A model generated the notes under the pieces. That model saw only the letters and a list, made by a program, of their open reading frames with translations, was not told where the DNA came from and made no database searches. A stretch of DNA of 19,119 nucleotides. Origin: a virus. The first letter of the stretch is position 1. Every line of letters starts with the position of its first letter. Shown here one piece after another: positions 786 to 15,348 of this stretch. The position numbers were made by a program, and so were the translations under genes. The stretch is taken from UHGV virus genome UHGV-0349885. One strand, 5' to 3'.

Positions 786-985
786 TTTTTGCGGGTCCTT
801 TCCGGCGATCCGGGCCGTTACGGGGCGGCGACCTCGCGGTTTTTCACTATTTATGAAAATTTTTCAGGGAAAATCGTGTCGGTACTTCTCGAATATAACT
901 TTTTGTTTTTTTTTATATTGCATCCGTAAAGGTCCGACATGAAAGTGTCCGAAAATGCCTTTTTCTGGCGTTTTCATGTCGGGCC
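786..985 (+). other. Prophage cos site (lambda-type): cosQ-like GGGTCCTTTCCGG at 793-805, cosN GGGCGGCGACCT at 823-834, I2-like CGCGGTTTTTCACTATTTATGA, then cosB with inverted repeat CCGACATGAAA (934-944) / TTTCATGTCGG (972-982)
   Basis: Near-identical to the lambda cos junction as recalled from memory (acgggtcctttccgg...ttacg|gggcggcgacctcgcgggttttcgctatttatga); lies immediately upstream of the Nu1-like gene, as in lambda. Confidence 0.85.
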
Positions 986-1010: not shown

Positions 1011-1559
1011 ATGAAGGTTAATAAAAAGAGGCTTGCCGAAATTTTCAACGTGGACCCGCGGACGATTGAACGCTGGCAGTCTCAGGGACTCCCTTGCGCC
1101 TCCAAAGGTAGTAAGGGCATTGAATCTGTATTTGATACTGCCATGGCAATTCAGTGGTATGCGCAGAGGGAAACTGATATCGAAAACGAAAAGCTCCGCA
1201 AAGAACTGGACGATTTGCGTGCGGCAGCGGAGTCAGATTTACAACCCGGCACCATTGACTATGAACGCTACCGGCTCACAAAAGCGCAGGCAGATGCGCA
1301 GGAACTGAAAAATGCCCGTGAAGACGGAGTAGTGCTGGAAACTGAACTGTTTACCTTCATTCTGCAACGTGTGGCACAGGAGATTTCGGGGATACTTGTG
1401 CGTGTGCCGTTGACATTACAGCGTAAATATCCGGACATTTCACCATCACACCTTGATGTGGTGAAAACTGAAATCGCGAAAGCCTCCAATGTTTCAGCTA
1501 AGGCCGGTGAAAACGTGGGCGGGTGGATCGATGATTTCAGACGCGCAGAAGGCAGCTAA
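1011..1559 (+). CDS. Nu1: Terminase small subunit, lambda Nu1-like
   Basis: 182 aa; N-terminus [28 protein letters not shown] closely matches the lambda Nu1 N-terminal winged-HTH (MEVNKKQLADIFGASIRTIQNWQEQGMP, from memory); directly downstream of cos; 3' end overlaps the next gene's start as in lambda. Confidence 0.9.
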
Positions 1560-2513
1560 TGCAGCCGGTGCGATAGCAACAGGGCTTTTATCTCTCATTA
1601 TTCCTGTTCCACTGACGACAGTTCAGTGGGCCAATAAACATTATTACCTTCCTAAAGAGTCGTCTTATACCCCGGGGCGGTGGGAAACACTGCCGTTTCA
1701 GGTTGGCATCATGAACTGTATGGGCAACGATTTGATTCGCACTGTTAACCTGATTAAATCTGCCCGTGTTGGTTATACAAAGATGTTGCTGGGAGTGGAG
1801 GCTTATTTTATTGAGCATAAATCACGCAACAGCCTTCTTTTTCAGCCCACGGACTCAGCTGCTGAAGATTTTATGAAATCTCATGTTGAGCCAACGATAA
1901 GGGAGGTTCCTGCGTTGCTGGAGCTGGCTCCATGGTTCGGAAGAAAACACCGCGATAATACGCTCACCCTGAAGCGTTTTTCCTCCGGTGTGGGTTTCTG
2001 GTGTCTGGGGGGAGCGGCAGCAAAAAACTACCGTGAAAAATCCGTGGATGTGGTCTGTTATGACGAGCTTTCCTCGTTCGAACCGGATGTTGAAAAAGAG
2101 GGTTCGCCAACCCTGCTGGGGGATAAACGTATTGAGGGCTCTGTATGGCCCAAATCCATTCGCGGCTCGACTCCTAAAATCAAAGGCTCCTGCCAGATCG
2201 AAAAAGCCGCTAACGAGTCGGCACACTTCATGCGTTTTTATGTGCCCTGTCCGCACTGTGGGGAGGAGCAGTATCTGAAATTTGGCGATGAGTCCACGCC
2301 TTTTGGGCTTAAATGGGAGAAGGACAGCCCCGAAAGCGTTTTCTACCTCTGTGAGCATCATGGCTGCGTGATCCATCAGTCTGAACTGGACCAGAGTAAC
2401 GGGCGGTGGATCTGTGAAAACACGGGCATGTGGACCCGTGACGGCCTGACGTTTTTCAGCGCTGCGGGTAATGAAATTCCGCCGCCGCGCTCCATCACTT
2501 TCCATATCTGGAC
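1531..2513 (+). CDS. A: Terminase large subunit (lambda gpA-like), N-terminal 327 codons, interrupted by insertion; in the integrated state the frame reads on into element DNA to a stop at 2757
   Basis: ATG at 1531 overlapping the Nu1 end; strong similarity to lambda gpA ([20 protein letters not shown], Walker-A-like [41 protein letters not shown]); similarity stops at HIWT (about 2513) where the integrase-proximal element sequence begins. Confidence 0.85.
2503..2513 (+). repeat. attL core: left copy of 11-bp direct repeat CATATCTGGAC
   Basis: Identical 11-mer at 14392-14402; both copies encode H-I-W-T of the terminase at the points where terminase homology breaks and resumes. Confidence 0.75.
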
Positions 2514-2683
2514 TATGCAATCATTATCTTTCATTGCCGTTTCTTTTTGTGTTTCTTCTTATTCAATAAGTTGCGGTTTCTTCAATTGTGTGCATTGTTC
2601 CTTTTTTTTCGCTTTTTTATCGCCAGTATTCTGGCAAAAGGAACCAGCGCATGGACTAGAAAAATTTGTATTGGAGTGCTTGT

Positions 2684-3916
2684 ATGTCGGTGAAGCCTCT
2701 TACTGCATCAGAGGTAAAAAGCGCCAGGCCACGAGAGAAAGATTACGCTCTGTATGATGGGTTTGGGCTTTTGTTTTATGTGTCAAAAGCCGGTAGTAAA
2801 TCGTGGCGTTTTCGTTATGTACAACCTTTTACGAAGAAGCGGCAAACATACACTATAGGGCGATACCCGGATTTCACACTGGTTGAAGCCAGAGAAGAAC
2901 GCGATAAGCTGCGCAGATTGCTGGCACGGGATATAGATCCGTTATCATACCGGGCAGAAAAACGACTTGAGGCTAAAAGAAAGCACTTACAGACGTTTGG
3001 TGCTATTGCAATTGAATGGTTTAATTTTAAGAAAAAAGGTGATTTGCGGCTGTCGACTTTACAAACAATAGAGGAATTATTGAACAGACATATAATTCCT
3101 GTATTCGGAAATATGTACTTACATGATATGACCGCGCCAGTGGTTATTTCACTGCTTAATCAATTTTCTGATCGTAATGCTGTACTGGCTAAAATGCTGT
3201 CAAAAATTAATGAAATAATGAATTACTGTGTTAACTCTGGAGTGATTAAAAACAATCCGCTATCAACAATAAGAAAGGCATTTGTAATAAAAAAAGATAC
3301 ACCATTAAAAGCATTACCAGTTGAACGGTTATCAGAATTTTTGAACTGGTGGGAGACCACAAGTAATATCTCTATGAGATGCTCTCTTTTGTTCCAGATT
3401 GTCACTATGGTAAGACCATGTGAAGCAAGGGAGGCAAAATGGGAAGAAATTGATTTAGAAAATTGTATCTGGACAATTCCCCCTGAAAGAATGAAGTGTG
3501 GACGTGAACACGTAGTTCCGCTTTCACGGCAAGCCGTGGATATTTTAAGTGAAATGAATAAAATAAAATGTGGTAGCTATATATTTTTTTCTCCAAAGAA
3601 TCCGGGGAAAGCTATATCAAGCGTGTTGCGTCATAAGTGTTTCAGAGAGGGGCCATTTTATGGTGTTGCAACTGCTCACGGATTCCGGGCTATGTGGAGT
3701 ACGTTACTCAATGAAGAAGGGTTTAACCCAGATGTTATTGAGGCAGCATTGGCCCATAAAAGCGGCGATGCTATTCGTGATATTTATAATCGCTCAAAAT
3801 ATTTTGAGCAACGTAAGATCATGATGCAATGGATTGGTGATTTTGTTGATGATGCCAGAAAGGGAATTATCCGCCGTTCTGGTGGTCATCAGGGGCTAAA
3901 AGTAGTGAATATGTGA
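2684..3916 (+). CDS. int: Tyrosine site-specific integrase, P4-type
   Basis: ATG at 2684 with GGAG 8 nt upstream (ORF track begins at an upstream TTG, 2666). N-terminus MSVKPLTASEVKSARPREKDYALYDGFGLLFYVSKAGSKSWRFRY matches the P4-integrase N-terminal arm-binding domain; C-terminal region has HGFRAMW and RDIYNRSKY consistent with catalytic His/Arg/Tyr. Confidence 0.9.
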   Translation: MSVKPLTASEVKSARPREKDYALYDGFGLLFYVSKAGSKSWRFRYVQPFTKKRQTYTIGRYPDFTLVEAREERDKLRRLLARDIDPLSYRAEKRLEAKRKHLQTFGAIAIEWFNFKKKGDLRLSTLQTIEELLNRHIIPVFGNMYLHDMTAPVVISLLNQFSDRNAVLAKMLSKINEIMNYCVNSGVIKNNPLSTIRKAFVIKKDTPLKALPVERLSEFLNWWETTSNISMRCSLLFQIVTMVRPCEAREAKWEEIDLENCIWTIPPERMKCGREHVVPLSRQAVDILSEMNKIKCGSYIFFSPKNPGKAISSVLRHKCFREGPFYGVATAHGFRAMWSTLLNEEGFNPDVIEAALAHKSGDAIRDIYNRSKYFEQRKIMMQWIGDFVDDARKGIIRRSGGHQGLKVVNM

Positions 3917-3922
3917 GGCAAT

Positions 3923-4132
3923 ATGAGCACTAACGGCAATATTCTATTTACCAAAGACGTGATGGCAGAGCTTCGCTACGGTGCAATGAGTGCGTTTTAC
4001 GCTTTCATGAACGATGAAAAAAATAAATTTCCACGCCCCTTTAAGATTGGGCGACGCAACGCATGGCATCGTGATGATGTTGCATCGTGGCTGGAAAGAC
4101 AACGAAAACAAGCTAATGAATATCGTCAATGA
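3923..4132 (+). CDS. alpA: AlpA/Xis-family small DNA-binding protein (putative excisionase / transcriptional regulator)
   Basis: 69 aa, immediately after int, GAGG Shine-Dalgarno; sequence FTKDVMAELRYGAMSAFYAFMNDEKNKFPRPFKIGRRNAWHRDDVASWLE fits the AlpA/Vis/Xis HTH pattern; followed by a terminator. Confidence 0.7.
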   Translation: MSTNGNILFTKDVMAELRYGAMSAFYAFMNDEKNKFPRPFKIGRRNAWHRDDVASWLERQRKQANEYRQ

Positions 4133-4140
4133 TTGATATA

Positions 4141-4164
4141 CCCCGCGCAATGCGGGGTTTTTTG
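4141..4164 (+). terminator. Rho-independent terminator after alpA
   Basis: Hairpin CCCCGC-gcaat-GCGGGG (4141-4157) followed by TTTTTT. Confidence 0.7.
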
Positions 4165-4178
4165 TATATGAGGTAAAA

Positions 4179-4760
4179 ATGATGAATAAAAATATTGCCG
4201 TGACGGGCAAGGGTGACGCACGTCATGTGAAAAAAGTCTGTGATATTCGTGATCTGGTCGTTCTGCGCTTTGATGGCGTGAGCGTTCGCGTGGTGTATCT
4301 GAACGGCGATCCGTGGTTTGTTGCAAAGGATGTCTGCGCTGCGCTGGAACTGACCAATTCGCGTACGGCGTTGCAGATGCTTGATGATGATGAAAAGGGA
4401 GTAAATTTAACTTACACCCCCGGAGGAAATCAGAATATGAGCATTATCTCTGAGTCAGGTTTCTACAAACTAATAGTCCGCAGCCGCAAAGCAACGACGC
4501 CTGGCACATTTGCTCATCGTTTTAGTAACTGGGTATTCAGAAATGTGATACCGGGTATCAGAAAAACGGGGGCTTATGGTATCCCGTGGGGTGCATTACA
4601 GGATTTTTCCCGCCGCAAAGAGCAATATCAGATAAGTGCCAGCGAGAAGGGGAGGGCGCTACAGGCATGTAAGCGCAAAAAACGTGAACTGGAGGAAGAA
4701 GAAAAAAGGCTGATACGTGAATATCAGCCTGAGTTTTACTTTGGTGAGCGTATTCAGTAA
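4179..4760 (+). CDS. BRO-N / KilA-N domain protein (phage antirepressor-like)
   Basis: 193 aa; N-terminal region LRFDGVSVRVVYLNGDPWFVAKDVCAALELTNSRTALQMLDDDEKG ... IRKTGAY matches the conserved BRO-N antirepressor motif; GAGG SD; charged coiled-coil-like C-terminus. Confidence 0.75.
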   Translation: MMNKNIAVTGKGDARHVKKVCDIRDLVVLRFDGVSVRVVYLNGDPWFVAKDVCAALELTNSRTALQMLDDDEKGVNLTYTPGGNQNMSIISESGFYKLIVRSRKATTPGTFAHRFSNWVFRNVIPGIRKTGAYGIPWGALQDFSRRKEQYQISASEKGRALQACKRKKRELEEEEKRLIREYQPEFYFGERIQ

Positions 4761-5040
4761 CCACACGCGGTGCTGATTATACGGTACATCGTGTTAACCG
4801 AGAAGCTACCCACCAGCAAGGCAAAATCTTCTGCTAAAAAATGACATATGACCAGTCGTCCAGAAAGCATGAAATTTTACAAAAATGGAAAATGAAGATT
4901 TTTATTGTGCTAGTGGGTAAAAACAAAAAGCGCCCCGTTGCCGGAGCGCCCTTGCGAACAATTAACCTGCTGCGAAAAAATTGGATCAGTGCAAGGAAAT
5001 TATATCAACTGTGTGAAGAAGCGCCACAATTGCCGGATAA

Positions 5041-5073
5041 CAGGCAAAGAAAAGGCCACCTGTCACGGTGGCC
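5041..5073 (-). terminator. Minus-strand rho-independent terminator
   Basis: Perfect 7-bp stem GGCCACC/GGTGGCC (5054-5060 / 5067-5073) with 6-nt loop; on the minus strand it is followed by TTTTCTTTG; it lies downstream of the minus-strand regulator gene. Confidence 0.5.
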
Positions 5074-5392
5074 CTTCAACACAAATTGCGCGTTATCCCC
5101 AACGCATGAGCATCGCCAACAATGCCATATTTGCGGCTGGTGGGCAAAGCCTGAGCGATCCTGTGATTACAGGAACTACGGCATTGTCTCGGTTAGGTAG
5201 TGCTCAACTTTTTTTCAACTCTACATCGCAAGCACGCCGTAATAAATCGCCCTTATCGTTTGAGCAAAGACTATTTTTCTCAAAGCATGATATTAAGAGA
5301 AAGATTGTGATAATTAAAGCAACCATCATTGGTACATGTTTTTTTAATTTTAACATCTTTTACTCCTATGATTATCGCCATCGTTCTTCATG

Positions 5393-5590
5393 TTATGACG
5401 TGATTAATGATTTCTCGGATTCACTGGCCTTGCGCCGCTGGCGATATTCAACTTCTCGTTTTAATGCCGCAGTAACAAATTGCCCCGTACTTTCGCCAGG
5501 CATTTTTACCGCCTCAACATTGTTCATAACTTCATGCGGAACCCTTGCCGCAACGGTTTGTGATTTTGCGTTTACTGCTTTTGTCGCCAT
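5393..5590 (-). CDS. Small putative DNA-binding regulator (candidate repressor of the element; possibly ribbon-helix-helix-like)
   Basis: 65 aa, ATG at 5590 with GAGGGG SD; divergently oriented from the operator/promoter cluster at 5641-5692. Fold assignment is by eye only. Confidence 0.5.
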   Translation of the reverse strand: MATKAVNAKSQTVAARVPHEVMNNVEAVKMPGESTGQFVTAALKREVEYRQRRKASESEKSLITS

Positions 5591-5640
5591 GTGGTGTACC
5601 CCTCATAAAAAACAAATGCAGTATGCAGGAAAAAAAATAA

Positions 5641-5692
5641 GTGTTCAACACTTGACGTGTTTAACACCTGGGTTTAAATTGGTGTTCAACAC
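5641..5692. promoter_or_regulatory. Divergent promoter/operator region: three palindromic operators GTGTTCAACAC (5641-5651), GTGTTTAACAC (5657-5667), GTGTTCAACAC (5682-5692) overlapping a rightward sigma70-like promoter (-35 TTGACG 5652-5657, 17-bp spacer, -10 TAAATT 5675-5680)
   Basis: Three copies of an 11-bp perfect palindrome GTGTT-N-AACAC seen directly; they sit between the minus-strand regulator gene and the plus-strand early operon. Confidence 0.6.
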
Positions 5693-5789
5693 CTTGTTGG
5701 CGCAAGGTGCAGAAACGACGAAACCCGGCAGTGCGCTAACACTAACCGGGCTTCTAACCACCAACGATAGCGAAAGTATCGAGGCAGCT

Positions 5790-5993
5790 ATGAGAAATCA
5801 TACCACACACCCGCAAGGGCGGGACTCGCACGACCTGAATAAATACATCTGGCGTTTTATCGCCCTGAGCACGGCACAACCGCGCGTGATTACCATCGAG
5901 GCCACCAGCGAACAGGAAGCGCGTCAGCAATCTCCGGCTGGCTGCGTGATGGTATTCGCTGCCCGTATTCGCCAGGGGTCACATCATGCGTAA
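5790..5993 (+). CDS. Small early protein, Icd-like (P4 host cell-division inhibitor family) by motif
   Basis: ATG 5790 with GAGG SD 5 nt upstream; 67 aa; motif YIWRFIALS...RVITIEATSEQEARQQ...VFAARIRQG recalled as characteristic of Icd-like proteins of P4-type elements. Family assignment from memory only. Confidence 0.5.
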   Translation: MRNHTTHPQGRDSHDLNKYIWRFIALSTAQPRVITIEATSEQEARQQSPAGCVMVFAARIRQGSHHA

Positions 5994-6447
5994 AAACCGC
6001 TTGCAAAAAATTATCACGGGGCTGTATGCTTCCCCCGTCGCCCACATGGCGACCGGGTTTGACAGCCTGAATACATCTGGCGGACAGCCGCCCACATCCG
6101 ATAAGCGGTTTTTTTGTGTCCGTAAACCTACCCATACCCGCATTATGGCGGGGCGTAACGGGGGAGCCTTTGTGCTCGCTGGTTTCCAGATGACCAGTCT
6201 GTCAACCCTGTTACGTCTCGCCACCATGTTTGACAGCGTAGTAGCGAGACTCCTTAAAATTCATCTGGGAGCCTTTCACATGGCTGTATCCGCACGCCCT
6301 TATTTTGTCTGGCGCTTTATGCAGTGCCTGACAGACAGCATTGCAATATTCACCGTTACCGCTGCCACTGAGCGCGAAGCACGTGCACAGCTGCCGCACG
6401 CACATCTGATTTTTGTCGCCCGTATTCGTCAGGGGGTAGGCTTATGA
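5986..6447 (+). CDS. Icd/Ash-like paralog (153 aa) carrying the same C-terminal motif
   Basis: Start overlaps the previous stop; C-terminus YFVWRFMQCLTDSIAIFTVTAATEREARAQLPHAHLIFVARIRQG is a clear paralog of the 5790-5993 product. Confidence 0.5.
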   Translation: MRKNRLQKIITGLYASPVAHMATGFDSLNTSGGQPPTSDKRFFCVRKPTHTRIMAGRNGGAFVLAGFQMTSLSTLLRLATMFDSVVARLLKIHLGAFHMAVSARPYFVWRFMQCLTDSIAIFTVTAATEREARAQLPHAHLIFVARIRQGVGL

Positions 6448-6677
6448 GTCAGGAAATCACACTACAACAGGCAGCAGAACGCGCCCACCAAATCGAAGTT
6501 ATTTGCGCACTGGCAGAGGATTACCCTGGCATGATGACCGACAGCGAATCAGGGGCAATCATCGGCTTACTTAAACGCCTTAGCGGTGAGGTCTGCGTAT
6601 TCCTGAGCGATGAACAGGAAAGAAGAACGCTTATTTCTAACGAAAAAAAATGCGGAGGGGTACACCATGTGCAATAA
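6444..6677 (+). CDS. Hypothetical small protein (77 aa), translationally coupled in early operon
   Basis: ATG overlaps the preceding stop (ATGA); GGGGG SD upstream; no recognisable family. Confidence 0.5.
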   Translation: MSQEITLQQAAERAHQIEVICALAEDYPGMMTDSESGAIIGLLKRLSGEVCVFLSDEQERRTLISNEKKCGGVHHVQ

Positions 6678-6888
6678 CATCCGTCCGGACGCAGCAGCCG
6701 CCGCGCTCACTACGCTGATGCACGCGCTTATCGATATTGAATGCACTGCAGAGCTTGCGCAGGGAGAAGAACAGAAAGACCGGACACAGTTCGCCCTGGA
6801 ATGTATCCGATACATCGCAACGCGGTCGCTGAATGAAGCTAAAAATATTCTTGTTGCTGATTGTGAAAATGGGGGGGGTTATGCGTGA
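6667..6888 (+). CDS. Hypothetical small protein (73 aa from ATG 6667; ORF track offers an upstream start at 6610)
   Basis: Strong SD GGAGGGG 7 nt upstream of ATG 6667; stop overlaps the next start in the 8-mer ATGCGTGA. Confidence 0.45.
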   Translation: MCNNIRPDAAAAALTTLMHALIDIECTAELAQGEEQKDRTQFALECIRYIATRSLNEAKNILVADCENGGGYA

Positions 6889-7114
6889 TGATCGTTTTAA
6901 TTCCCTGAAACAGGAATTTTCCGGCGTTCCTGATGATGCGGCTGATGCGCTTTCGTCAATGCCAGAACTTATTAGAGCGGCTTTTTTCTTACTTTCCACG
7001 AGAGAATATAAATCAACGGGGCTTGATGTACTGAATATCGCCGCCGATTATGCGGAATATGTGGCAGAGGCGCGTTATAGAAGAAAATTTCCTGAGGATG
7101 TAAGCCATGCGTGA
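6881..7114 (+). CDS. Hypothetical small protein (77 aa, MRDDRFNSLKQEF...)
   Basis: ATG 6881 inside the overlap 8-mer ATGCGTGA; acidic and helical; no recognisable family. Confidence 0.45.
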   Translation: MRDDRFNSLKQEFSGVPDDAADALSSMPELIRAAFFLLSTREYKSTGLDVLNIAADYAEYVAEARYRRKFPEDVSHA

Positions 7115-7268
7115 TATTTACCACGAAACAATAGACCGCGCATTTCTTGCACTTTCTCACAGTGAAAACATGCTGGAAATATTGCGCATATGGCTTGAAA
7201 CACTTGGCGACAATGAACGCGACAAACAAAAAATCAAGAATTGCCACGGCATTAATAACGCTTCTTGA
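7107..7268 (+). CDS. Hypothetical small protein (53 aa, MRDIYHETIDRAFLALSHSENMLEILRIWLETLGDNERDKQKIKNCHGINNAS)
   Basis: ATG 7107 again inside an ATGCGTGA overlap with the preceding stop (7112-7114); translated by hand; competes with ORF-track 7147-7341, which needs a TTG start. Confidence 0.3.
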   Translation: MRDIYHETIDRAFLALSHSENMLEILRIWLETLGDNERDKQKIKNCHGINNAS

Positions 7269-7346
7269 GCCTGTAATAATGGAACTGCAAGAAATAGATC
7301 TATTGCACGACAGATATAAAGAACAGCACACCGGAGAATAAAAATA

Positions 7347-7646
7347 ATGAAACTTAAATATTCTGGCTTAACTGCCAGTGGCAACACTCACCCTAAATTT
7401 ACGCGCGGCGATATTTACCGCGACCAGTACGGCGGCACGGTAATGATTAAGGGCGTGGAAGAACGGCGCGTAACCTACCGCCGTGAAGGTTACGAATATG
7501 ATTGCGTGATGCCTGTTTATCAGTTCCGGCGTGATTTTTCTCTGGTACAGACCGCGCCGCATAACGTGTCCACCAGCAACGCCAGGGCACGGGCAAACAT
7601 CCAGAAGCTGAAAACCATGATTAACGGATTCAGGGGTAAAAAATGA
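7347..7646 (+). CDS. Hypothetical protein (99 aa) immediately upstream of and coupled to the primase gene
   Basis: ATG 7347 with GGAG upstream; stop overlaps the primase ATG (ATGA); no recognisable family. Confidence 0.5.
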   Translation: MKLKYSGLTASGNTHPKFTRGDIYRDQYGGTVMIKGVEERRVTYRREGYEYDCVMPVYQFRRDFSLVQTAPHNVSTSNARARANIQKLKTMINGFRGKK

Positions 7647-9397
7647 AACTGGCACCGAACGTAAAACAGCAGTCACGCGGCATAAAACACAAAGAAACAG
7701 AAGTCATTATTTTTGCGGGTAGTGATGCCTGGTCACACGCAAAACAATGGCAGGAACATGACGCGCGTATGGCCGGAGATAATGAGCCTCCTGTGTGGCT
7801 TGGGGAGCAGCAGTTATCCGAACTGGATAAGCTGCAAATTGTGCCGGAAGGCAGAAAATCCGTGCGCATATTCAGGGCCGGATATCTTGCGCCAGTAATG
7901 ATAAAGGCGATTGGTCAGAAGCTGGCGGCGGCAGGCGTACAGGATGCAAATTTTTACCCTGATGGTATGCACGGTCAGAAGGTGGAGAACTGGCGCGAAT
8001 ATCTGGCCCGTGAGCGCCAGAATCTTTCTGATGGTCTGGTCATTGAGCTTCCGGTAAAGCAAAAGGCGCAACTTTCGCAGATGGCGGACAGTGAGCGCGC
8101 GCAGCTGCTTGCCGATCGCTTTGATGGCGTTTGCGTACATCCTGAAAGTGAAATCGTTCACGTATGGCGCGGCGGGGTATGGTGTCCGGTCAGCACAATG
8201 GAACTTAGCCGCGAAATGGTGGCGATCTATTCAGAGCACAGGGCCACTTTCAGCAAGCGCGTAATCAATAACGCCGTGGAAGCGTTAAAAGTTATTGCCG
8301 AACCAATGGGCGAGCCGTCCGGCGATTTGTTGCCGTTCGCCAATGGTGCGCTTGACCTGAAAACGGGGGAATTTTCCCCGCACACGCCGGAGAACTGGAT
8401 CACCACGCACAACGGCATTGAGTACACGCCACCAGCACCAGGGGAGAACATCCGCGATAACGCGCCAAACTTTCATAAATGGCTTGAGCACGCAGCCGGA
8501 AAAGACCCGCGCAAGATGATGCGTATATGTGCCGCGCTGTACATGATTATGGCGAACCGGTACGACTGGCAGATGTTTATTGAGGCCACCGGAGACGGCG
8601 GGAGCGGTAAAAGTACATTCACACACATAGCCAGCCTTCTGGCAGGGAAACAGAACACGGTAAGCGCTGAAATGACATCGCTTGATGATGCTGGTGGACG
8701 TGCGCAGGTTGTCGGGAGTCGTCTTATCGTCCTGGCTGACCAGCCGAAATATACAGGCGAAGGAACGGGCATCAAGAAAATCACGGGCGGTGACCCCGTG
8801 GAAATTAACCCGAAATACGAAAAGCGTTTCACGGCGGTAATCAGGGCGGTGGTGCTGGCGACCAACAATAACCCGATGATATTCACCGAACGGGCCGGAG
8901 GTGTGGCACGTCGTCGCGTGATTTTCCGTTTCGACAATATCGTCAGTGAGGCCGAAAAAGACAGGGAGCTACCGGAAAAGATCGCGGCTGAAATCCCTGT
9001 CATTATCCGCCGATTGCTGGCGAACTTTACCGACCCTGAGAAGGCACGGGCTTTACTACTGGAACAGCGTGACGGTGATGAAGCTCTGGCAATAAAGCAA
9101 CAGACGGATCCGGTTATTGAGTTTTGCCAGTTCCTGAATTTTCTGGAGGAAGCGCGCGGCCTGATGATGGGGGGCGGTGGCGATTCAGTGAAGTACACGA
9201 CCAGGAACAGCCTTTACCGCGTCTATCTGGCGTTTATGGCATACGCAGGCAGGAGCAAACCGCTAAACGTAAATGACTTTGGCAAGGCTATGAAGCCAGC
9301 CGCGAAAGTTTACGGACATGAATATATTACGCGGAAAGTTAAGGGAGTAACGCAGACTAACGCAATAACAACAGACGATTGCGACGCGTTTTTATAA
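7643..9397 (+). CDS. Replication initiator: DNA primase / SF3-type NTPase (P4-alpha / D5 family C-terminal domain)
   Basis: 584 aa; Walker A EATGDGGSGKSTF, then RLIVLADQPKY and KKITGGDPVEINPKYEKRFTAVIRAVVLATNNNPMIF typical of the phage/plasmid primase P4-family C-terminal domain; the iteron origin lies directly downstream. Confidence 0.85.
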   Translation: MKLAPNVKQQSRGIKHKETEVIIFAGSDAWSHAKQWQEHDARMAGDNEPPVWLGEQQLSELDKLQIVPEGRKSVRIFRAGYLAPVMIKAIGQKLAAAGVQDANFYPDGMHGQKVENWREYLARERQNLSDGLVIELPVKQKAQLSQMADSERAQLLADRFDGVCVHPESEIVHVWRGGVWCPVSTMELSREMVAIYSEHRATFSKRVINNAVEALKVIAEPMGEPSGDLLPFANGALDLKTGEFSPHTPENWITTHNGIEYTPPAPGENIRDNAPNFHKWLEHAAGKDPRKMMRICAALYMIMANRYDWQMFIEATGDGGSGKSTFTHIASLLAGKQNTVSAEMTSLDDAGGRAQVVGSRLIVLADQPKYTGEGTGIKKITGGDPVEINPKYEKRFTAVIRAVVLATNNNPMIFTERAGGVARRRVIFRFDNIVSEAEKDRELPEKIAAEIPVIIRRLLANFTDPEKARALLLEQRDGDEALAIKQQTDPVIEFCQFLNFLEEARGLMMGGGGDSVKYTTRNSLYRVYLAFMAYAGRSKPLNVNDFGKAMKPAAKVYGHEYITRKVKGVTQTNAITTDDCDAFL

Positions 9398-9410
9398 TTT
9401 TTTGCAATGG

Positions 9411-9640
9411 CTGTCTACCCTGTCTACCTGAGTAAAGAAAAATACATTTAATTCAGTATATTAACTTAGGTAGACAGCCTTTTTTCACTGTCTACCTACT
9501 ATCTACCCTCTCTACCTGATTTTACCTGAATCAGACAGGGAGGTAGATACGGGGTAGATAGTGGATAAAAGCACTCTACCCCGCTGAAAGCCGCGCCATT
9601 ACTGGCATGAGAGCCAGTAAGGTAGATAAGGTAGACAAGG
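9411..9640. repeat. Iteron-type replication origin: about 11 copies of TCTACC / GGTAGA (6 forward, 5 reverse) in AT-rich context
   Basis: Forward copies at 9414, 9423, 9491, 9502, 9511, 9575; reverse copies at 9469, 9542, 9553, 9621, 9630; immediately 3' of the primase gene, the usual ori position in PICI/SaPI-like elements. Confidence 0.75.
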
Positions 9641-9685
9641 GGAGGCACAACTCAAAACTTTTTAAACGAGGGGGTAAAAATAAAA

Positions 9686-10362: not shown

Positions 10363-10377
10363 GCGACGAGTGACAGA

Positions 10378-10400
10378 AGCCGGAGCAATCCGGCTTTTTT
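10378..10400 (+). terminator. Rho-independent terminator after ssb
   Basis: Stem GCCGGA/TCCGGC (10379-10384 / 10389-10394), loop GCAA, T-run 10395-10400. Confidence 0.65.
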
Positions 10401-10616: not shown

Positions 10617-10692
10617 GCATATGAGGCTTTTTGGTGCACTGACACACATGATCGGGATAATCATTTCATAATTTGCAACACAACTCAATATC

Positions 10693-10777: not shown

Positions 10778-10984
10778 ATGGCTGAAGAGAAAAAAGGCGG
10801 TGTTTCGGTGTACATAAGCCCCGACATCGTAAAGGCGCTCAAGGAACGCCACCAGCAGAACGTAAAAGCAGGCATTGCGGCAGGACTTGATCCGCTGGCG
10901 ATGGTTGAGCCGTCAACAGGCTGGCAGGTACGCGCCTATTTACGCGCGGCGCTGGGTATGAATCAGGTTCACGGGGGTGAATAA
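10778..10984 (+). CDS. Hypothetical small protein (68 aa), first gene of the element capsid module
   Basis: ATG 10778 with AAGAGGAA SD; stop overlaps the capsid-gene start (TAATG); no recognisable family. Confidence 0.5.
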   Translation: MAEEKKGGVSVYISPDIVKALKERHQQNVKAGIAAGLDPLAMVEPSTGWQVRAYLRAALGMNQVHGGE

Positions 10985-12039
10985 TGACAGGCAAAGCAAC
11001 GGCACTTAACACTAACCAGCTTTTCATGTACCTGAATCGCGGGGATATTGCGGATTTTAAATTCAACCCTCTGTTTACTACGCTGTTTTTCCCGAACGTG
11101 GCGACATTCAGCACGCAAAACATCATGCTGGATACCCTGGACATTGAAGAAGTCACCATGTCGGCGTTTTGTTCGCCTATGGTTGGCAGCCAGGTACAGC
11201 GCGATAAAGGGTACGAAACCAGCACAATTAAACCTGGCTACATGAAGCCAAAGCACGAAATCGATCCAACAAAAACCATCATGCGCATGGCTGGAGAAGA
11301 TCCGGCACAGCTTAACGACCCTACCTACCGCCGTATGCGCCTGATTACTGGCAACATGCGCCGCCAGGTAAACGCCATTAAAGCGCGCGTGGAATGGCTG
11401 GCGGTGAATGCGATAACGACCGGAAAAAACATCATTGAGGGCGAAGGCATAGAACGCTATGAAATCGACTGGAAAATACCGGAAAACTGCATCATAGAGC
11501 AGGCCAAGGGTAAAAAATGGTCCGAGCAGGATAAAGACATGCACGACCCAATCTATGACATCGAGCTTTATGCTGATCAGGCTGGTTGCCCCGCAAACGT
11601 CATGATTATGGGCGCTGAGGTATGGCGCACGTTACGCAGCTTTAAAAAATTCCGTGAGCTGTACGATCTTTCCCGTGGTTCAGAGTCCGCCGCCGAACTG
11701 GCCTGTAAAAACCTGGGCGAAGTGGTGAGCTTTAAAGGCTATCTGGGCGATATTGCCCTTATCGTCTATTCCGGCAAATACACTGACAGCGACGGCACAG
11801 AAAAATATTTCCTTGAGCCTGATTTGCTGGTTCTGGGCAACACCAACAATAAAGGGCTGGTGGCCTATGGTGCGATTATGGATCAGGACGCAGTAAGAAC
11901 GGGCGCAACGCAAAACATGTTTTACCCGAAAAACTGGATTGGGGACGGCGATCCGGCGATTGAGTACGTGCAGACGCACAGCGCACCGCAGCCGGTTCCG
12001 GCAGATATTCGTAAATTTGTTACCGTCAAAATTGGTTAA
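10984..12039 (+). CDS. Major capsid protein homolog (lambda gpE-like), element-encoded and diverged from the prophage copy
   Basis: 351 aa; matches lambda gpE (from memory) at FKFNPLFTTLFF (lambda FKFDPLFLRLFF), PGYMKPKHEIDP (PGYVKPKHEVNP) and C-terminal YPKNW..GDPA...SAP; N-terminus differs from the prophage gpE start at 19064. Confidence 0.85.
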   Translation: MTGKATALNTNQLFMYLNRGDIADFKFNPLFTTLFFPNVATFSTQNIMLDTLDIEEVTMSAFCSPMVGSQVQRDKGYETSTIKPGYMKPKHEIDPTKTIMRMAGEDPAQLNDPTYRRMRLITGNMRRQVNAIKARVEWLAVNAITTGKNIIEGEGIERYEIDWKIPENCIIEQAKGKKWSEQDKDMHDPIYDIELYADQAGCPANVMIMGAEVWRTLRSFKKFRELYDLSRGSESAAELACKNLGEVVSFKGYLGDIALIVYSGKYTDSDGTEKYFLEPDLLVLGNTNNKGLVAYGAIMDQDAVRTGATQNMFYPKNWIGDGDPAIEYVQTHSAPQPVPADIRKFVTVKIG

Positions 12040-12050
12040 CGGGGGATTCT

Positions 12051-12386
12051 ATGGACACTCCATACATTGAGTTATTTGCAGGCAGTCAGCAGGTCGCCAC
12101 GACGCTGGTACATTTTGCCGCTGATGCTGGCGTTATTCAGGAATTTACCCCGCTGATGCTGGCGGACAATGGCGAGTTTAAGCCGTGGGATGGTAAGGAA
12201 TCTGGCAAGGCTGTTTATCTGACCTCGTACCCTGTGGACACGTCAAAGCAGAAATCAGCACAGTGTTACAAGACGGGGATATTCAATATTGCCGCCGTTA
12301 ACTGGCCTGAGAGCGTCGACACCGATGCGAAAAAATGCGCCGCCTTTGCGGGTTCTGGCGTATCCGTTCAGCCGCTGGCCCGATAA
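12051..12386 (+). CDS. Head decoration protein homolog (lambda gpD-like), element-encoded
   Basis: 111 aa; shares TPLML..WDG..YKTGxF..WPES..KK.AAFAGS with lambda gpD and with the prophage gpD at 18659-19006. Confidence 0.75.
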   Translation: MDTPYIELFAGSQQVATTLVHFAADAGVIQEFTPLMLADNGEFKPWDGKESGKAVYLTSYPVDTSKQKSAQCYKTGIFNIAAVNWPESVDTDAKKCAAFAGSGVSVQPLAR

Positions 12387-12398
12387 GCAGGGGGAACG

Positions 12399-12812
12399 AT
12401 GGCAACGAATGAAAGCATCATGACGCTACCGCTGGCGAGTAAATTTAAAGCCGAAGCGCGGGCAATGGCTGACAGAGGTTTATCAACCTATGAGGCCGTA
12501 TATCAACTAAACAAACTGGAAGAGCAGGACAAGCCGCGCGCTGATGCGATTATGGCGCTTGATGAATCTGGCGACTATCAGCCGCTGTTACGTGCAATGG
12601 CAAACGTGCCTTGTATCGATGTTGGTACGGCTAAAAGCATCCTTAGCATGACCATAGAGCAGGAACGTCCGAAGGTTGCGCCGGAACTTACTGCAGCCTT
12701 TGAAAACTTTATGGACATGCACAGCCCGCAAGCCGTATCAGCTGGCATGGCATACGATGGCAGAAACCAGGGCGATGACGGCGACATCGATCGCATACTG
12801 AAAACCATCTGA
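12399..12812 (+). CDS. Scaffold-like protein (Nu3 / gpC C-terminal-domain homolog), element-encoded; candidate capsid-size-redirecting scaffold
   Basis: 137 aa; C-terminus TAAFENFMDMHSPQAVSAGMAYDGRNQGDDGD parallels the prophage gpC-Nu3 C-terminus TALFEHFMANHSPAAVRGGVSQTSADGDAD; middle region resembles one of the internal repeats of the prophage protein. Confidence 0.6.
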   Translation: MATNESIMTLPLASKFKAEARAMADRGLSTYEAVYQLNKLEEQDKPRADAIMALDESGDYQPLLRAMANVPCIDVGTAKSILSMTIEQERPKVAPELTAAFENFMDMHSPQAVSAGMAYDGRNQGDDGDIDRILKTI

Positions 12813-12842: not shown

Positions 12843-12966
12843 ATGGGTCCTTTCCGGCATATGGACCCGTTACGGGGCGGCGACCTCGCGGGTTTTCGCT
12901 ATTTATGACGTTTTTCCGTGAAGGTGACACCACCACCACTTGATTAATATTTAACCATGCGGTTAA
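12843..12966 (+). other. Element cos site A (forward): cosQ-like GGGTCCTTTCCGG 12845-12857, cosN GGGCGGCGACCT 12875-12886, I2-like CGCGGGTTTTCGCTATTTATGA, divergent cosB with TTAACC-atgc-GGTTAA
   Basis: About 75-bp core near-identical to the prophage cos and to lambda cos; flanking cosB differs from the prophage cosB; lies directly upstream of the Nu1-like gene at 12976. Confidence 0.85.
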
Positions 12967-12975
12967 GGTAACATT

Positions 12976-13416
12976 ATGATTGATAAAGCTTGTTTTGTAA
13001 GTCAGCAGGAAATAGCTGAACATTTCAAGGTTAACAGAACCACTATTCGCGCATGGACCAAACAGGGGATGCCGTATCTTAATGCGGATCGCGGAAAGTC
13101 TGGCGGTTATCACATCGGGCATACATTGCTTTGGTCTTCAGGTAAAAGCCGTCTTGAGGCCATCAGATATCACGTAGAAACCAGTGCGCTGGAAAAAATT
13201 ATGTTTGCCAGGCTGCTTTCATCTGAGCGTGACGAGTACTCCAGTGAAGAAACAGAACATCGATTTGATGAAGGTTTGCAGATTTACGGCTATTCACCGG
13301 AAGATGTGAGCAAGGCACGAAATAAAATGGCTGGCTTTCTGGCTGGGTGGCGTCATGCCGTAAGCGTTCGCCGTGCCAGCATGGAACAATCAGTCGTTAC
13401 AGAACAGCAAAGTTAA
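12976..13416 (+). CDS. Terminase-small-subunit-like protein (Nu1 N-terminal wHTH homolog with unrelated C-terminus); candidate packaging-redirection factor
   Basis: 146 aa; N-terminus VSQQEIAEHFKVNRTTIRAWTKQGMPYLNADRGKSGG aligns with prophage Nu1 [34 protein letters not shown]; positioned just 3' of cos-A, as Nu1 is relative to cos. Confidence 0.7.
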   Translation: MIDKACFVSQQEIAEHFKVNRTTIRAWTKQGMPYLNADRGKSGGYHIGHTLLWSSGKSRLEAIRYHVETSALEKIMFARLLSSERDEYSSEETEHRFDEGLQIYGYSPEDVSKARNKMAGFLAGWRHAVSVRRASMEQSVVTEQQS

Positions 13417-13445
13417 AAATCACTTTCTGTTACGCCATCAAATAC

Positions 13446-13597
13446 GCAATACAACAACCACGTATTTTTTTAAAACTATTTGATTCAATTAGCATTTTTT
13501 TATTTTTAGCATCAAAAAAACACTATCAGGTTGTTGTATTGCTCTTTATTTTTACTTAGTTATCAAATGGATATGACAAACAATTAAACAACAACCT
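13446..13597. repeat. Perfect 14-bp inverted repeat GCAATACAACAACC (13446-13459) / GGTTGTTGTATTGC (13529-13542) around a 69-bp AT-rich spacer, plus a third ACAACAACC copy (13589-13597); candidate cosB R-elements of cos-B
   Basis: Repeats read directly from the sequence; they occupy the cosB side of the inverted cos-B in an R3 / AT-rich / R2 / R1-like layout. Confidence 0.5.
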
Positions 13598-13610
13598 CCC
13601 TCTAAAAAAG

Positions 13611-13680
13611 CTCATAAATAGCGAAAAACCGCGAGGTCGCCGCCCCGTAACGGGCCATAATTCCAGGAAGGACCCGACGA
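13611..13680 (-). other. Element cos site B (inverted orientation): cosN reverse-complement AGGTCGCCGCCC at 13634-13645, I2-like 13611-13633, cosQ-like GGAAGGACCC 13666-13675
   Basis: Reverse complement matches the cosQ-cosN-I2 core of cos-A and the prophage cos almost base for base. Confidence 0.8.
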
Positions 13681-13991: not shown

Positions 13992-13997
13992 CTTGTG

Positions 13998-14041
13998 GTG
14001 ACATACCGTGACGGGAGTGACAACCAGTGACACACAGTGAC
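13998..14041. repeat. Array of five GTGAC(A) direct repeats at 9-10 bp spacing (starts 13998, 14008, 14017, 14027, 14037)
   Basis: Seen directly; helical phasing suggests same-face binding of one protein; the reverse complement TGTCACT resembles the lambda Int arm-type consensus (AGTCACTAT, from memory). Confidence 0.5.
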
Positions 14042-14391
14042 AAAAAAAGACGGTATTTAAATAGGGTGGGTGTTTAATACCCTAGGGGGATCGGAATCCC
14101 TACACCCCATTGCTTATGAGACCGCATTCCCCGTCAAATTTTTACACCCGCGAAATTAAAAAAATGCGTCACGCTGGTGGGTGTGATGCTGATATGGGGA
14201 TTTCCATAACCGAGATTAAGCAAAGAGCAAACTTGCCCCCTGTAGCCAAACATAGTAACCATCTAAGCCCCTTTTTTATCTTAATTTAGCTGATTTTTCC
14301 GTGTTTATACGGACTAGAATTTGTACCAAACGCAAAAGCGATGTCTTCTTTATTCCTTTAAATTCAATTTATTATCTTGCTTGTTTGCTTT

Positions 14392-14402
14392 CATATCTGG
14401 AC
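14392..14402 (+). repeat. attR core: right copy of 11-bp direct repeat CATATCTGGAC
   Basis: Identical to 2503-2513; terminase homology resumes exactly here (HIWTAYSPFTTWVQIV). Confidence 0.75.
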
Positions 14403-15348
14403 GGCGTACAGTCCGTTCACCACCTGGGTACAGATTGTCTATGACTGGCTGGATGCACTGAAAGATCCCAACGGCCTGAAAACCTTTGTGAACACCACGC
14501 TGGGCGAGACCTGGGAAGAGGCTGTGGGCGAAAAAATCGATCACCAGGTACTGATGGATAAGGTTGTGCGTTACACGGCGGCGGTGCCTGCCCGGGTGGT
14601 TTATCTGACGGCGGGCATTGACTCGCAGCGAAACCGTTTTGAGATGTATGTCTGGGGATGGGCTCCGGGAGAGGAAGCCTTTCTGGTGGATAAAATCATC
14701 ATTATGGGGCGTCCCGATGAGGAAGAGACGCTGTTACGTGTGGATGCGGCGATCAACAAAAAATACCGCCATGCAGACGGAACCGAAATGACTATTTCCC
14801 GTGTCTGCTGGGACATCGGGGGGATCGATGGCGAAATCGTTTATCAGAGGTCAAAAAAACACGGTGTTTTCCGGGTGCTGCCGGTAAAAGGCGCATCTGT
14901 CTATGGCAAGCCGGTGATCACCATGCCAAAAACCCGCAATCAGCGGGGCGTGTATCTGTGTGAAGTGGGGACGGACACCGCAAAAGAAATTCTCTATGCC
15001 CGTATGAAAGCCGATCCCACGCCTGTGGATGAAGCCACGTCGTATGCCATCCGTTTTCCTGATGATCCGGAGATTTTTTCGCAGACAGAGGCGCAGCAAC
15101 TGGTCGCGGAAGAGCTTGTGGAGAAGTGGGAAAAAGGAAAGATGCGTCTGCTGTGGGATAACAAAAAGCGGCGTAACGAAGCGCTGGACTGCCTGGTGTA
15201 TGCCTACGCGGCATTACGTGTGTCCGTGCAACGCTGGCAGCTTGATCTGGCTGTACTGGCAAAATCCCGGGAAGAAGAGACGACCCGGCCAACCCTGAAA
15301 GAACTGGCAGCGAAGCTGTCCGGAGGAGTGAATGGTTACAGTCGCTGA
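14392..15348 (+). CDS. A: Terminase large subunit (lambda gpA-like), C-terminal 315 codons downstream of the insertion; the ORF track extends it to an in-frame TTG at 14377 inside element DNA
   Basis: Colinear with lambda gpA C-terminal half (FHIWTAYSPFTTWVQIV, FVNTTLGETWE, YLTAGIDSQ, RVCWDIGGID, SKKHGVFRVLPVKGASVYGKP, EVGTDTAKE, KRRNEALDCLVYAYAALR); the N part plus this part total 642 codons, against lambda gpA 641 aa. Confidence 0.85.
   Translation, partial: HIWTAYSPFTTWVQIVYDWLDALKDPNGLKTFVNTTLGETWEEAVGEKIDHQVLMDKVVRYTAAVPARVVYLTAGIDSQRNRFEMYVWGWAPGEEAFLVDKIIIMGRPDEEETLLRVDAAINKKYRHADGTEMTISRVCWDIGGIDGEIVYQRSKKHGVFRVLPVKGASVYGKPVITMPKTRNQRGVYLCEVGTDTAKEILYARMKADPTPVDEATSYAIRFPDDPEIFSQTEAQQLVAEELVEKWEKGKMRLLWDNKKRRNEALDCLVYAYAALRVSVQRWQLDLAVLAKSREEETTRPTLKELAAKLSGGVNGYSR

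What the first reader, a model, noticed from the sequence alone, without database searches (positions are those of the whole stretch)
2514..2757. Integrated state creates two separately translatable TerL halves
The N-terminal TerL reading frame continues 81 codons into element DNA (stop at 2757, overlapping the int start), which would yield a roughly 409-aa ATPase-domain protein with an element-encoded tail. The C-terminal half has an in-frame TTG at 14377 inside the element's right arm. If either half is expressed it could act as a dominant-negative or be a by-product; either way the junctions are in-frame rather than immediately terminated.
Basis: inference. Interest (0 to 1): 0.45.

Follow-up and report, generated by a model that had tools for sequence, protein, structure and literature searches.

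The report
Satellite element splitting a prophage terminase gene
An 11.9-kb phage satellite sits inside the large-terminase gene of an E. coli lambda-like prophage. The "extra" reading frames at its two junctions are accidental run-ons into non-coding attachment-site DNA, not designed proteins.

Summary
The terL frame runs 80 sense codons plus a stop (2515-2757) past the junction at 2513/2514 and overlaps int (ATG 2684). An in-frame TTG lies at 14377.

The element (2514-14402, 11,889 bp) is a helper-embedded PICI-type satellite. This configuration was described in 2023 (PMC10111431), but here the target site is new: gpA-type TerL, codons H-I-W-T 325-328. The integrase lineage also differs, at 27% identity to the 11capE integrase.

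Deleting the element in silico gives an intact 642-aa terL that is 100% identical to empty sites in other E. coli genomes.

The long tail is not conserved:
- Two independent 1-nt indels cut it to 47 codons.
- Sister elements enter the same arm in another frame and stop after 18 codons.
- Relatives with 58-73% identical integrases, at the same TerL motif, stop within 1-7 codons.

TTG 14377 has no Shine-Dalgarno pairing, and 43% of shuffled sequences give an equivalent start.

My reading is that the N-terminal fragment is probably made as a by-product while the satellite stays integrated. The C-terminal half is probably not translated on its own. A dominant-negative role is untested and nothing here supports it specifically.

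The junction ORFs themselves are of low interest. The new site and integrase clade are of moderate interest.

The parts
823..834 (+). helper prophage cosN (GGGCGGCGACCT)
   Evidence: identical to the lambda cosN sequence (own knowledge)
1011..1559 (+). helper small terminase (Nu1-like)
   Evidence: PF07471 Phage_Nu1 on the identical gene in related loci; PGAP 'terminase small subunit' in L001
1531..2513 (+). terL N-terminal half: codons 1-327 plus 2 nt of codon 328. Holds the GpA_ATPase domain, Walker A at residue 76, Walker B at 174 and the C-motif at 211-214.
   Evidence: Pfam PF05876, E 2e-57, residues 46-293; motif positions
2503..2513 (.). attL core CATATCTGGAC. The extended match TT(C/T)CATATCTGGAC covers 2500-2513.
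   Evidence: direct repeat with 14392-14402
2515..2757 (+). the flagged read-through tail: 80 sense codons plus TGA, in the terL frame, running over non-coding arm DNA and the first 74 nt of int
   Evidence: not conserved
2514..2683 (.). P' arm of the attachment site and int leader. It contains the arm repeat GGACTAGAAAAATTTGTATT (2653-2672) and the int SD GGAG (2673-2676). No sigma-70-like promoter or terminator was found.
   Evidence: a GGACTA motif is also conserved in the distant relatives L039-L043
2684..3916 (+). tyrosine integrase (P4-type, with Arm-DNA-bind_3 domain)
   Evidence: Pfam; exact sequence present in 124 assembly blocks, always downstream of Nu1 and the terL N-half
3923..4132 (+). 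AlpA-like HTH (presumed excisionase/regulator), followed by a terminator-like hairpin at 4140-4158
   Evidence: Pfam PF05930, E 5e-4, just below the curated cutoff; hairpin
4179..4760 (+). Bro-N domain protein (Bro zone)
   Evidence: Pfam PF02498
6024..6228 (+). C4-type antisense immunity RNA (6141-6228) and its a1/b1 target (6024-6073)
   Evidence: Rfam RF01695 at 72.6 bits and RF03163 at 46.8 bits
7347..10362 (+). replication zone: DUF4222 (7347-7646), D5-type primase (7643-9397), iterons (9411-9519) and SSB (9940-10362)
   Evidence: primase is 43% identical to that of 11capE
10984..12812 (+). late zone: lambda-E-like major capsid protein (10984-12039), D-like decoration protein (12051-12386) and a Nu3/scaffold-like 137-aa protein (12399-12812)
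12875..13645 (.). two inverted cosN copies (+ strand 12875-12886, - strand 13634-13645) flanking a Nu1-like HTH gene (12976-13416)
13992..14391 (.). P arm of the attachment site. It contains GTGAC repeats (13998-14053), the arm repeat GGACTAGAATTTGTACC (14312-14329), the frame-closing TAA (14359-14361) and the in-frame TTG (14377-14379).
14392..14402 (.). attR core CATATCTGGAC
14403..15348 (+). terL C-terminal half (GpA_nuclease domain; catalytic-region motif TAGID at residues 397-401 of the restored protein)
   Evidence: Pfam PF20454, E 3e-72, starting at profile position 2; restored 642-aa ORF

Best explanation
Positions 2514-2757 are the P' arm of attL of an 11,889-bp PICI-type satellite. 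The satellite is embedded in, and co-oriented with, the gpA-type large-terminase gene of a lambdoid E. coli prophage.

A P4-type tyrosine integrase recombined the element's core CATATCTGGAC with the same sequence at TerL codons H325-I-W-T328. This is the start of a highly conserved TerL block, just past the Pfam ATPase domain.

The attP site carries no replacement coding sequence, so terL is simply cut. The ribosome that starts at the native terL ATG runs on through non-coding arm DNA until it meets a stop by accident. In this lineage that takes 80 codons (47 in indel variants). In sister lineages it takes 1-18.

The C-terminal half is left without a ribosome-binding site.

Inferred, not shown:
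- During helper induction, Q-antiterminated late transcription reads from terS and the terL N-half straight into int-alpA, because no promoter or terminator lies between them.
- The satellite then excises and regenerates an intact 642-aa terL. Terminase production would thus be delayed until the satellite is free.
- The TerL(1-328)+tail fragment is a transient by-product of the integrated state.
For: Insertion and precise boundaries:
- The element deleted in silico gives a 1929-nt ORF.
- The 500-nt junction is 100% identical to uninterrupted terL in 14 complete E. coli genomes. At least 80% of it is covered in 1878 of 5426 genomes.
- Restored ORFs are also intact in L001 (642 aa) and L003 (638 aa).

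Satellite identity:
- The gene order is int, AlpA-like, Bro-N, C4 RNA, DUF4222, primase, SSB, E-like capsid, D-like decoration, scaffold-like, Nu1-like HTH, plus helper-type cosN.
- The capsid protein is 55% and the primase 43% identical to those of the published HE-PICI 11capE.

Site-specific and recurrent insertion:
- The identical integrase occurs in 124 assembly blocks, always in the order Nu1, terL N-half, int.
- Helper N-halves differ at 0-159 of 983 nt.
- Integrases 58-73% identical, in Enterobacter, Klebsiella, Salmonella and E. coli, sit at the homologous TerL motif.

The tail is not selected:
- Independent 1-nt indels in L003 and L032 shift it to 47 codons.
- Three of the four substitutions in its first 23 codons are non-synonymous.
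- The same arm at another target is entered in a different frame and stops after 18 codons. 11capE stops after 9.
- Distant relatives stop after 1-7 codons.

C-terminal half:
- TTG 14377 has no SD pairing.
- The chance expectation for such a start is 43%.

Read-through into int:
- No promoter-like or terminator-like site lies between the terL N-half and int.

Published precedent (PMC10111431):
- Excision of 11capE follows replication of the composite.
- attP carries no replacement sequence.
- Integration-generated fusions of late-gene fragments with int were treated as annotation artefacts.
Against: - No expression, excision or packaging data exist for this element.
- No attP junction was found in complete E. 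coli genomes. The element was not found in phage records. Exact arm patterns found nothing meaningful in IMG/VR or JGI metagenomes.
- An 80-codon open run is only a 1-2% event in shuffles, and it is the commonest arm allele (11 of 13 loci). Most of those arms are identical by descent.
- The insertion point lies near the ATPase/nuclease boundary across the whole integrase clade. That could also be read as selection for a defined fragment.
Confidence: 0.8

Rival explanations
1. Decoy or dominant-negative fragment. TerL(1-328), with or without the tail, is made from the helper late operon. It keeps the TerS-binding N-terminus and the ATPase core but lacks the nuclease and portal-binding parts. 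It would therefore titrate TerS or poison terminase assemblies. That would depress packaging by the helper or by co-resident lambdoid prophages until, or even after, the satellite excises.
For: - Native RBS and start.
- Complete GpA_ATPase domain with Walker A, Walker B and C motifs.
- The insertion point is conserved across the integrase clade.
- N-half ORFs are free of stops in 13 of 13 loci.
- This terL type is present in about 35% of complete E. coli genomes, often in several copies, so targets would exist.
- In lambda, the gpA N-terminus binds Nu1 and the C-terminus binds the prohead (own knowledge).
Against: - Intact N-halves are equally expected for a reversible insertion.
- The tail varies freely between 1 and 80 codons.
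- The published HE-PICIs use 14 different positions in nine late genes, which argues that the purpose is disruption rather than a particular fragment.
- The conserved TerL block W327-Q338 explains the site choice by target conservation alone.
- The break lies about 35 residues beyond the Pfam ATPase domain and about 70 before the nuclease catalytic motif, so the fragment may not be a clean fold.
- Structure prediction failed.
Confidence: 0.1
2. Translational control of int. Ribosomes that continue from the terL N-half through the arm modulate Int synthesis. They could do so by occluding the int RBS (80-codon form, stop 72 nt inside int) or by termination-reinitiation (47-codon form, stop 27 nt upstream of the int ATG).
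For: - Geometry of the two alleles.
- No separate int promoter was detected.
Against: - The two alleles predict opposite effects.
- In the more distant clade members the stop lies 147-163 nt upstream of int, too far for coupling.
- No conserved arrangement exists.
Confidence: 0.05
3. Dead remnant. This would be an irreversible insertion in a decaying prophage, with both halves being pseudogene debris.
For: - PGAP annotates both halves as partial pseudogenes.
- No attP was found.
- The 2023 paper notes that many helpers look truncated.
Against: - Both halves are free of stops or frameshifts in every locus examined.
- int is intact and identical across 124 assembly blocks.
- The flanking late genes are intact.
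- The same element sits in helpers differing by up to 16%, which implies recent, repeated integration.
Confidence: 0.05

Closest known systems
Helper-embedded PICIs (HE-PICI; type element Eco567.11capE; Tommasini, Mageeney & Williams 2023, PMC10111431)
   Same: - A satellite of about 11 kb integrated inside, co-oriented with and disrupting a lambdoid prophage late gene.
- Zone order: int-alpA, then Bro/immunity RNA, then primase/SSB, then E-like capsid and D-like decoration.
- attP carries no replacement sequence.
- Helper-type cos.
- Capsid protein 55% and primase 43% identical.
   Different: - The integrase is only 27% identical (92 bits, against the paper's 400-bit cutoff).
- The HE-PICI-specific doubled TGTATTGC attP motif is absent.
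- The target is a gpA-type TerL. That target is not among the paper's 14 sites, whose gene-A sites are in Terminase_1-type TerL.
- The junction read-through is much longer: 80 or 47 codons, against 9 in 11capE.
Gram-negative PICIs such as EcCICFT073
   Same: int-alpA-primase backbone, cos packaging by a lambdoid helper, and capsid-related late genes (as described in PMC10111431).
   Different: Those elements sit in chromosomal genes apart from the helper. This one sits inside the helper's terL.
Regulated gene integrity / active lysogeny (for example, excision-dependent restoration of B. subtilis sigK or Listeria comK; own knowledge, and concept as cited in PMC10111431)
   Same: A gene is split by an integrative element and becomes functional only after precise excision.
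   Different: Here the split gene belongs to another mobile element (the helper phage), and the presumed beneficiary is the satellite.
Satellite P4
   Same: P4-type integrase domain architecture (Arm-DNA-bind_3 plus Phage_integrase), D5-type primase and C4/CI-type immunity RNA.
   Different: No Sid, Psu or Delta homologues were detected. It carries lambda E/D-type capsid genes and integrates into a phage gene rather than a tRNA gene.

Membership tests
HE-PICI (configuration) | Integrated within, and disrupting, a late gene of a prophage | tested here: met
   terL is split at codon 328. The flanks are cos, Nu1, W, portal, protease and D. The empty site is 100% identical elsewhere.
HE-PICI (configuration) | Key satellite genes co-oriented with the interrupted late gene | tested here: met
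   int, alpA, primase and the capsid gene are all on the + strand, as is terL.
HE-PICI (configuration) | attP carries no replacement sequence, so the target gene is inactivated until excision | tested here: met
   The arm continuation bears no similarity to TerL. Pfam GpA_nuclease matches only from the host-derived residues onward.
HE-PICI (integrase clade of PMC10111431) | Integrase a close relative of the 11capE integrase (at least 400 bits in the paper's survey) | tested here: not met
   27% identity, 91.7 bits.
HE-PICI (integrase clade of PMC10111431) | Doubled motif tgTGTATTGCantgTGTATTGCa at about -81 and +132 from the attP centre | tested here: not met
   The only match has 3 mismatches, lies at 13434-13453 on the - strand (the wrong place) and is at chance level, with 0.28 expected. 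The arms instead share GGACTAGAA..TTTGTA.
HE-PICI (configuration) | Excises after helper induction and restores the late gene | not testable with these tools
   Only inferred, from intact halves and precise empty sites. No attP junction in complete genomes.
Gram-negative PICI | Size of about 10-15 kb, with ordered int/AlpA, Bro, replication (primase/SSB) and late zones | tested here: met
   11,889 bp with the domain order listed in the parts table.
Gram-negative PICI | Carries the helper's packaging signal | tested here: met
   cosN GGGCGGCGACCT with 88-98% identical flanks, at 12875 (+) and 13634 (-), compared with the helper copy at 823.
cf-PICI (capsid-forming PICI) | Encodes a full capsid and packaging set: portal, protease, connectors, TerS and TerL | tested here: not met
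   Only the capsid, decoration, scaffold-like and Nu1-like HTH proteins were detected.
P4-like satellite | Sid/Psu/Delta capsid-size and transactivation genes | tested here: not met
   No such Pfam or PHROG hits among the element's ORFs.

The most novel reading that the evidence does not exclude
The insertion point, conserved across a whole integrase clade just after the TerL ATPase core, would be selected because the integrated satellite turns the helper's terL into a gene for an ATPase-only, TerS-binding fragment. During early late-phase expression this fragment would sequester helper (or co-resident prophage) TerS, or pair with the satellite's own Nu1-like protein. That would bias terminase assembly toward the satellite's cos sites once full-length TerL is restored. 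It would be a cis-encoded interference mechanism not known for any satellite.
Probability: 0.08. Interest if true: 0.65.

Novelty: new variant of a known kind. Interest (0 to 1): 0.3.

Why it matters
For the finding as written, the practical value is in annotation. These junction ORFs are artefacts of integration. Prodigal-type callers report the 408-aa fusion and then truncate int to 378 aa, while PGAP calls two pseudogenes.

For biology, the locus shows that the helper-embedded lifestyle is not confined to the single integrase clade described in 2023. A second, distantly related P4-type integrase clade targets a conserved motif of gpA-type TerL across Escherichia, Salmonella, Klebsiella and Enterobacter. 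It has a sister lineage retargeted to another late gene, with 20 fixed integrase substitutions and a changed attP core.

That pair is a compact natural system for studying how tyrosine-integrase site specificity shifts. Splitting the packaging motor gene itself is also the most direct way so far seen for a satellite to gate helper packaging on its own excision.

Tried and rejected
1. AlphaFold2 on an intact TerL homologue (P0126) with a 9-sequence alignment, to place the break in the fold. Mean pLDDT was 30.6, so the model is unusable. Sequence search of the PDB found no relative. Domain placement therefore rests on Pfam boundaries and motif positions only.

2. Exact-pattern searches for the arm junction:
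   - IMG/VR gave 1 chance hit.
   - GTDB representative genomes gave 7 chance hits in unrelated MAGs.
   - JGI metagenomes gave 0 hits.
   - None gave further examples. The examples came from the protein-identity index instead.

3. Search for a circular or excised form. No contiguous attP was found in complete E. coli genomes. The element is not present in the phage records searched.

4. Looked for the published HE-PICI doubled attP motif. It is absent.

5. Literature search for dominant-negative TerL fragments found nothing directly relevant. One T4 paper only shows that the isolated nuclease domain is about 13-fold weaker than full-length gp17.

6. Considered that the terL insertion is an off-target event of the commoner tail-gene lineage. 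Rejected for three reasons:
   - terL-site integrases form their own sublineage, 99.5-100% identical to one another and 94.5% to the other lineage.
   - The attP core differs.
   - More distant clade members also use terL.

Full report
**Observation**

The window is the late-operon start of a lambdoid prophage. It holds a lysis gene, cosN (GGGCGGCGACCT, 823-834), a Nu1-like terS (1011-1559), a gpA-like terL, W, the portal, the protease and D.

The terL frame (ATG 1531) reads …TTC CAT ATC TGG AC, and then its identity with the intact gene stops at 2513. The frame continues ACT ATG CAA … for 80 sense codons to TGA at 2755-2757. It overlaps int, whose likely start is ATG 2684, preceded by GGAG at 2673-2676.

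On the right, TAA at 14359-14361 closes the frame. TTG at 14377 opens it again, and the sequence TTT CAT ATC TGG ACG GCG TAC resumes terL. The fused product is 408 aa.

**What it is**

The sequence TT(C/T)CATATCTGGAC occurs at 2500-2513 and at 14389-14402. Removing 2514-14402 (11,889 bp) gives a 1929-nt ORF encoding a 642-aa TerL.

The 500-nt reconstructed junction is 100% identical to uninterrupted terL genes in 14 complete E. coli genomes. At least 80% of it is covered in 1878 of 5426 genomes. The occupied junction occurs in only 2 of 5426.

The insert encodes, in order:
- a P4-type tyrosine integrase
- an AlpA-like HTH
- a Bro-N protein
- a C4-type immunity RNA with its target
- DUF4222 and a D5-type primase, followed by iterons
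- SSB
- a lambda-E-like major capsid protein
- a D-like decoration protein
- a 137-aa protein 36% identical to the scaffold (Nu3) end of the helper's protease
- a Nu1-like HTH protein
- helper-type cosN

This is the organisation of a Gram-negative PICI.

**Known precedent**

Tommasini, Mageeney and Williams (2023, PMC10111431) described helper-embedded PICIs (HE-PICIs). These are PICIs integrated in, co-oriented with and disrupting prophage late genes. [quoted passage not shown] They showed experimentally that the composite excises and replicates before the satellite excises. They also report 14 cases where integration fused the late-gene fragment to int, and they treated these as annotation problems.

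The capsid protein here is 55% identical to that of their type element 11capE, and the primase is 43% identical.

Two of their family hallmarks are not met:
- The integrase is only 27% identical (92 bits, against their 400-bit cutoff).
- Their doubled TGTATTGC attP motif is absent.

Their supplements list gene-A sites only in Terminase_1-type TerL. They contain no gpA-type site and no copy of this core or these arms.

I therefore file this as the same configuration reached by a different integrase lineage at a new site. In their naming the site would be roughly A:GpA_nuclease:6-7, because the Pfam nuclease profile starts two residues before F324.

**Breadth**

- The exact integrase of the window is indexed in 124 assembly blocks. 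In all ten places shown it follows Nu1 and an uncalled terL N-half.
- The helpers' N-halves differ at 0, 30-39 or 153-159 of 983 nt. This means many independent insertions at the same codon.
- Integrases 73, 72, 59 and 58% identical are found in Enterobacter, Klebsiella quasipneumoniae, Salmonella (79 blocks) and E. coli (a cluster of 657 sequences). Each again lies directly after a truncated GpA_ATPase ORF, at the homologous F-H-(I/V)-W or S-F-W motif.
- A sister lineage with a 94.5% identical integrase is indexed in 259 blocks. It instead splits a 188-aa late gene of unknown function (phrog_1072) in a lambda-head/contractile-tail prophage. Its attP core is TCTCTTTTG(A/G)AC, and it has 20 fixed integrase substitutions (residues 75-328, about half of them in 144-205).

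**Is the in-frame state meaningful?**

Taken alone, an open run of at least 80 codons after the junction occurs in 1.3-1.8% of dinucleotide-preserving shuffles. Comparison removes the significance:
- L003 and L032 carry independent single-base indels in the arm, one in TTCAATTG and one in a T-run. Both shift the frame to a TAG after 47 codons. A third helper background with the 47-type tail is in the protein database (P0123).
- Within the first 23 codons, three of the four substitutions among relatives are non-synonymous.
- The sister lineage enters the same arm in another frame and stops after 18 codons. 11capE stops after 9.
- The four more distant clade members stop 1-7 codons after the junction.

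The arm thus evolves as non-coding DNA. It contains a repeat (GGACTAGAA…TTTGTA) shared with the other arm and conserved as GGACTA in distant relatives. These are presumably integrase arm-type sites.

On the right side, TTG 14377 has no anti-SD pairing (+1.7 kcal/mol, against -3 to -10 for the window's real genes). No upstream ORF could couple to it. An in-frame start before the first upstream stop arises in 43% of shuffles.

**Mechanism**

Shown:
- a precise, site-specific, recurrent insertion that cuts terL after codon 328
- both halves intact, with no stops in 13 of 13 N-halves and restored ORFs of 642 and 638 aa in L001 and L003

Inferred:
- No promoter-like or terminator-like site lies between the terL N-half and int. 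Helper late transcription should therefore run into int-alpA, as proposed for 11capE, and trigger excision. Excision would regenerate terL, so terminase can appear only after the satellite is free.
- While the element is integrated, ribosomes starting at the native terL site (SD -6.8 kcal/mol) should make TerL(1-328) plus an accidental, rather hydrophobic tail.
- Nothing indicates that this product is used.
- The site choice is adequately explained by target conservation. W327-Q338 is invariant among TerLs down to 61% identity, which gives a wide helper range.

**Rivals**

- A decoy or dominant-negative role for the N-terminal fragment is not excluded. The fragment keeps the TerS-binding end and all the ATPase motifs, and the site is conserved. 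No evidence is specific to this role, and the variable tail, together with the variety of HE-PICI sites in other genes, speaks against a designed fragment.
- Translational control of int by the run-on ribosomes is contradicted by the inconsistent stop positions: +72 nt, -27 nt, and -147 to -163 nt relative to the int ATG.
- A dead remnant is contradicted by the intact genes and the repeated recent insertions.

**Limits**

There are no expression or excision data. No attP junction or virion-derived copy was found. Structure prediction failed, so I cannot say whether residue 328 falls at a clean domain boundary. It lies 35 residues after the Pfam ATPase match and about 70 before the TAGID nuclease motif.

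**Verdict**

The junction ORFs are ordinary consequences of a satellite integrating inside a gene. The underlying element is a new variant of the known helper-embedded satellite kind, and that is the more interesting result.

Noticed in passing
window 12875-12886 (+) and 13634-13645 (-); helper copy 823-834: The satellite carries two copies of the helper's cosN (GGGCGGCGACCT, flanks 88-98% identical) in inverted orientation. They are about 760 bp apart and bracket the Nu1-like HTH gene (12976-13416). The same arrangement is in L001. No exact copies are in L002-L005. Two opposed cos sites in one small replicon are unexplained.
   Followed up: partly
L002 16006-27158, L004, L014-L023: A sister lineage (integrase 94.5% identical, arms about 90% identical) is embedded in a different late gene. 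That gene encodes a 188-aa phrog_1072 protein and lies between the head-tail joining and baseplate genes. The attP core is TCTCTTTTG(A/G)AC instead of TCATATCTGGAC. There are 20 fixed integrase substitutions (residues 75-328, about half in 144-205). In L004 the terL site in the same prophage is left empty. This looks like a recent switch of integrase site specificity.
   Followed up: partly
L038-L043 (Enterobacter, K. quasipneumoniae, Salmonella, E. coli): Integrases only 58-73% identical still lie directly after a truncated GpA_ATPase ORF, at the homologous TerL motif. This includes helpers with a DUF1441-type small terminase. The clade as a whole appears dedicated to gpA-type terL and is common: one cluster has 657 sequences.
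   Followed up: partly
window 12399-12812: A 137-aa ORF in the satellite late zone is 36% identical to the C-terminal (Nu3/scaffold) part of the helper's S49 protease gene product. Together with the E-like and D-like genes, this suggests a satellite-encoded capsid-remodelling set lacking portal, protease and TerL.
   Followed up: partly
window 13998-14053: Six GTGAC pentamers at about 10-bp phasing lie immediately after the last satellite ORF, in the P arm. They are candidate binding sites for an HTH protein (AlpA-like or Nu1-like).
   Followed up: no
window 6024-6073 and 6141-6228: Rfam C4 antisense RNA (72.6 bits) and its a1/b1 target (46.8 bits) lie inside the Icd-like/Bro zone. This matches the immunity-RNA arrangement reported for P4 and some PICIs.
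   Followed up: no
L034-L037 (same locus as window 1531-3916): Prodigal-type gene calls report the 408-aa TerL-tail fusion as a gene. As a consequence they shorten int to 378 aa or miss it. PGAP instead calls two terL pseudogene pieces. This is a systematic annotation artefact at such junctions.
   Followed up: yes
window 9411-9519 and 9615-9637: Repeats of CTGTCTACC/GGTAGACA type lie directly downstream of the primase gene. They probably form the satellite origin of replication.
   Followed up: no
window 4938-5993: A 351-aa ORF with a TTG start has only its last 90 residues matching a repressor/Icd-like PHROG. In L001 the same region is annotated as several short genes on both strands, and GC skew is negative over 5000-6500. 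The gene structure of this zone is uncertain.
   Followed up: no
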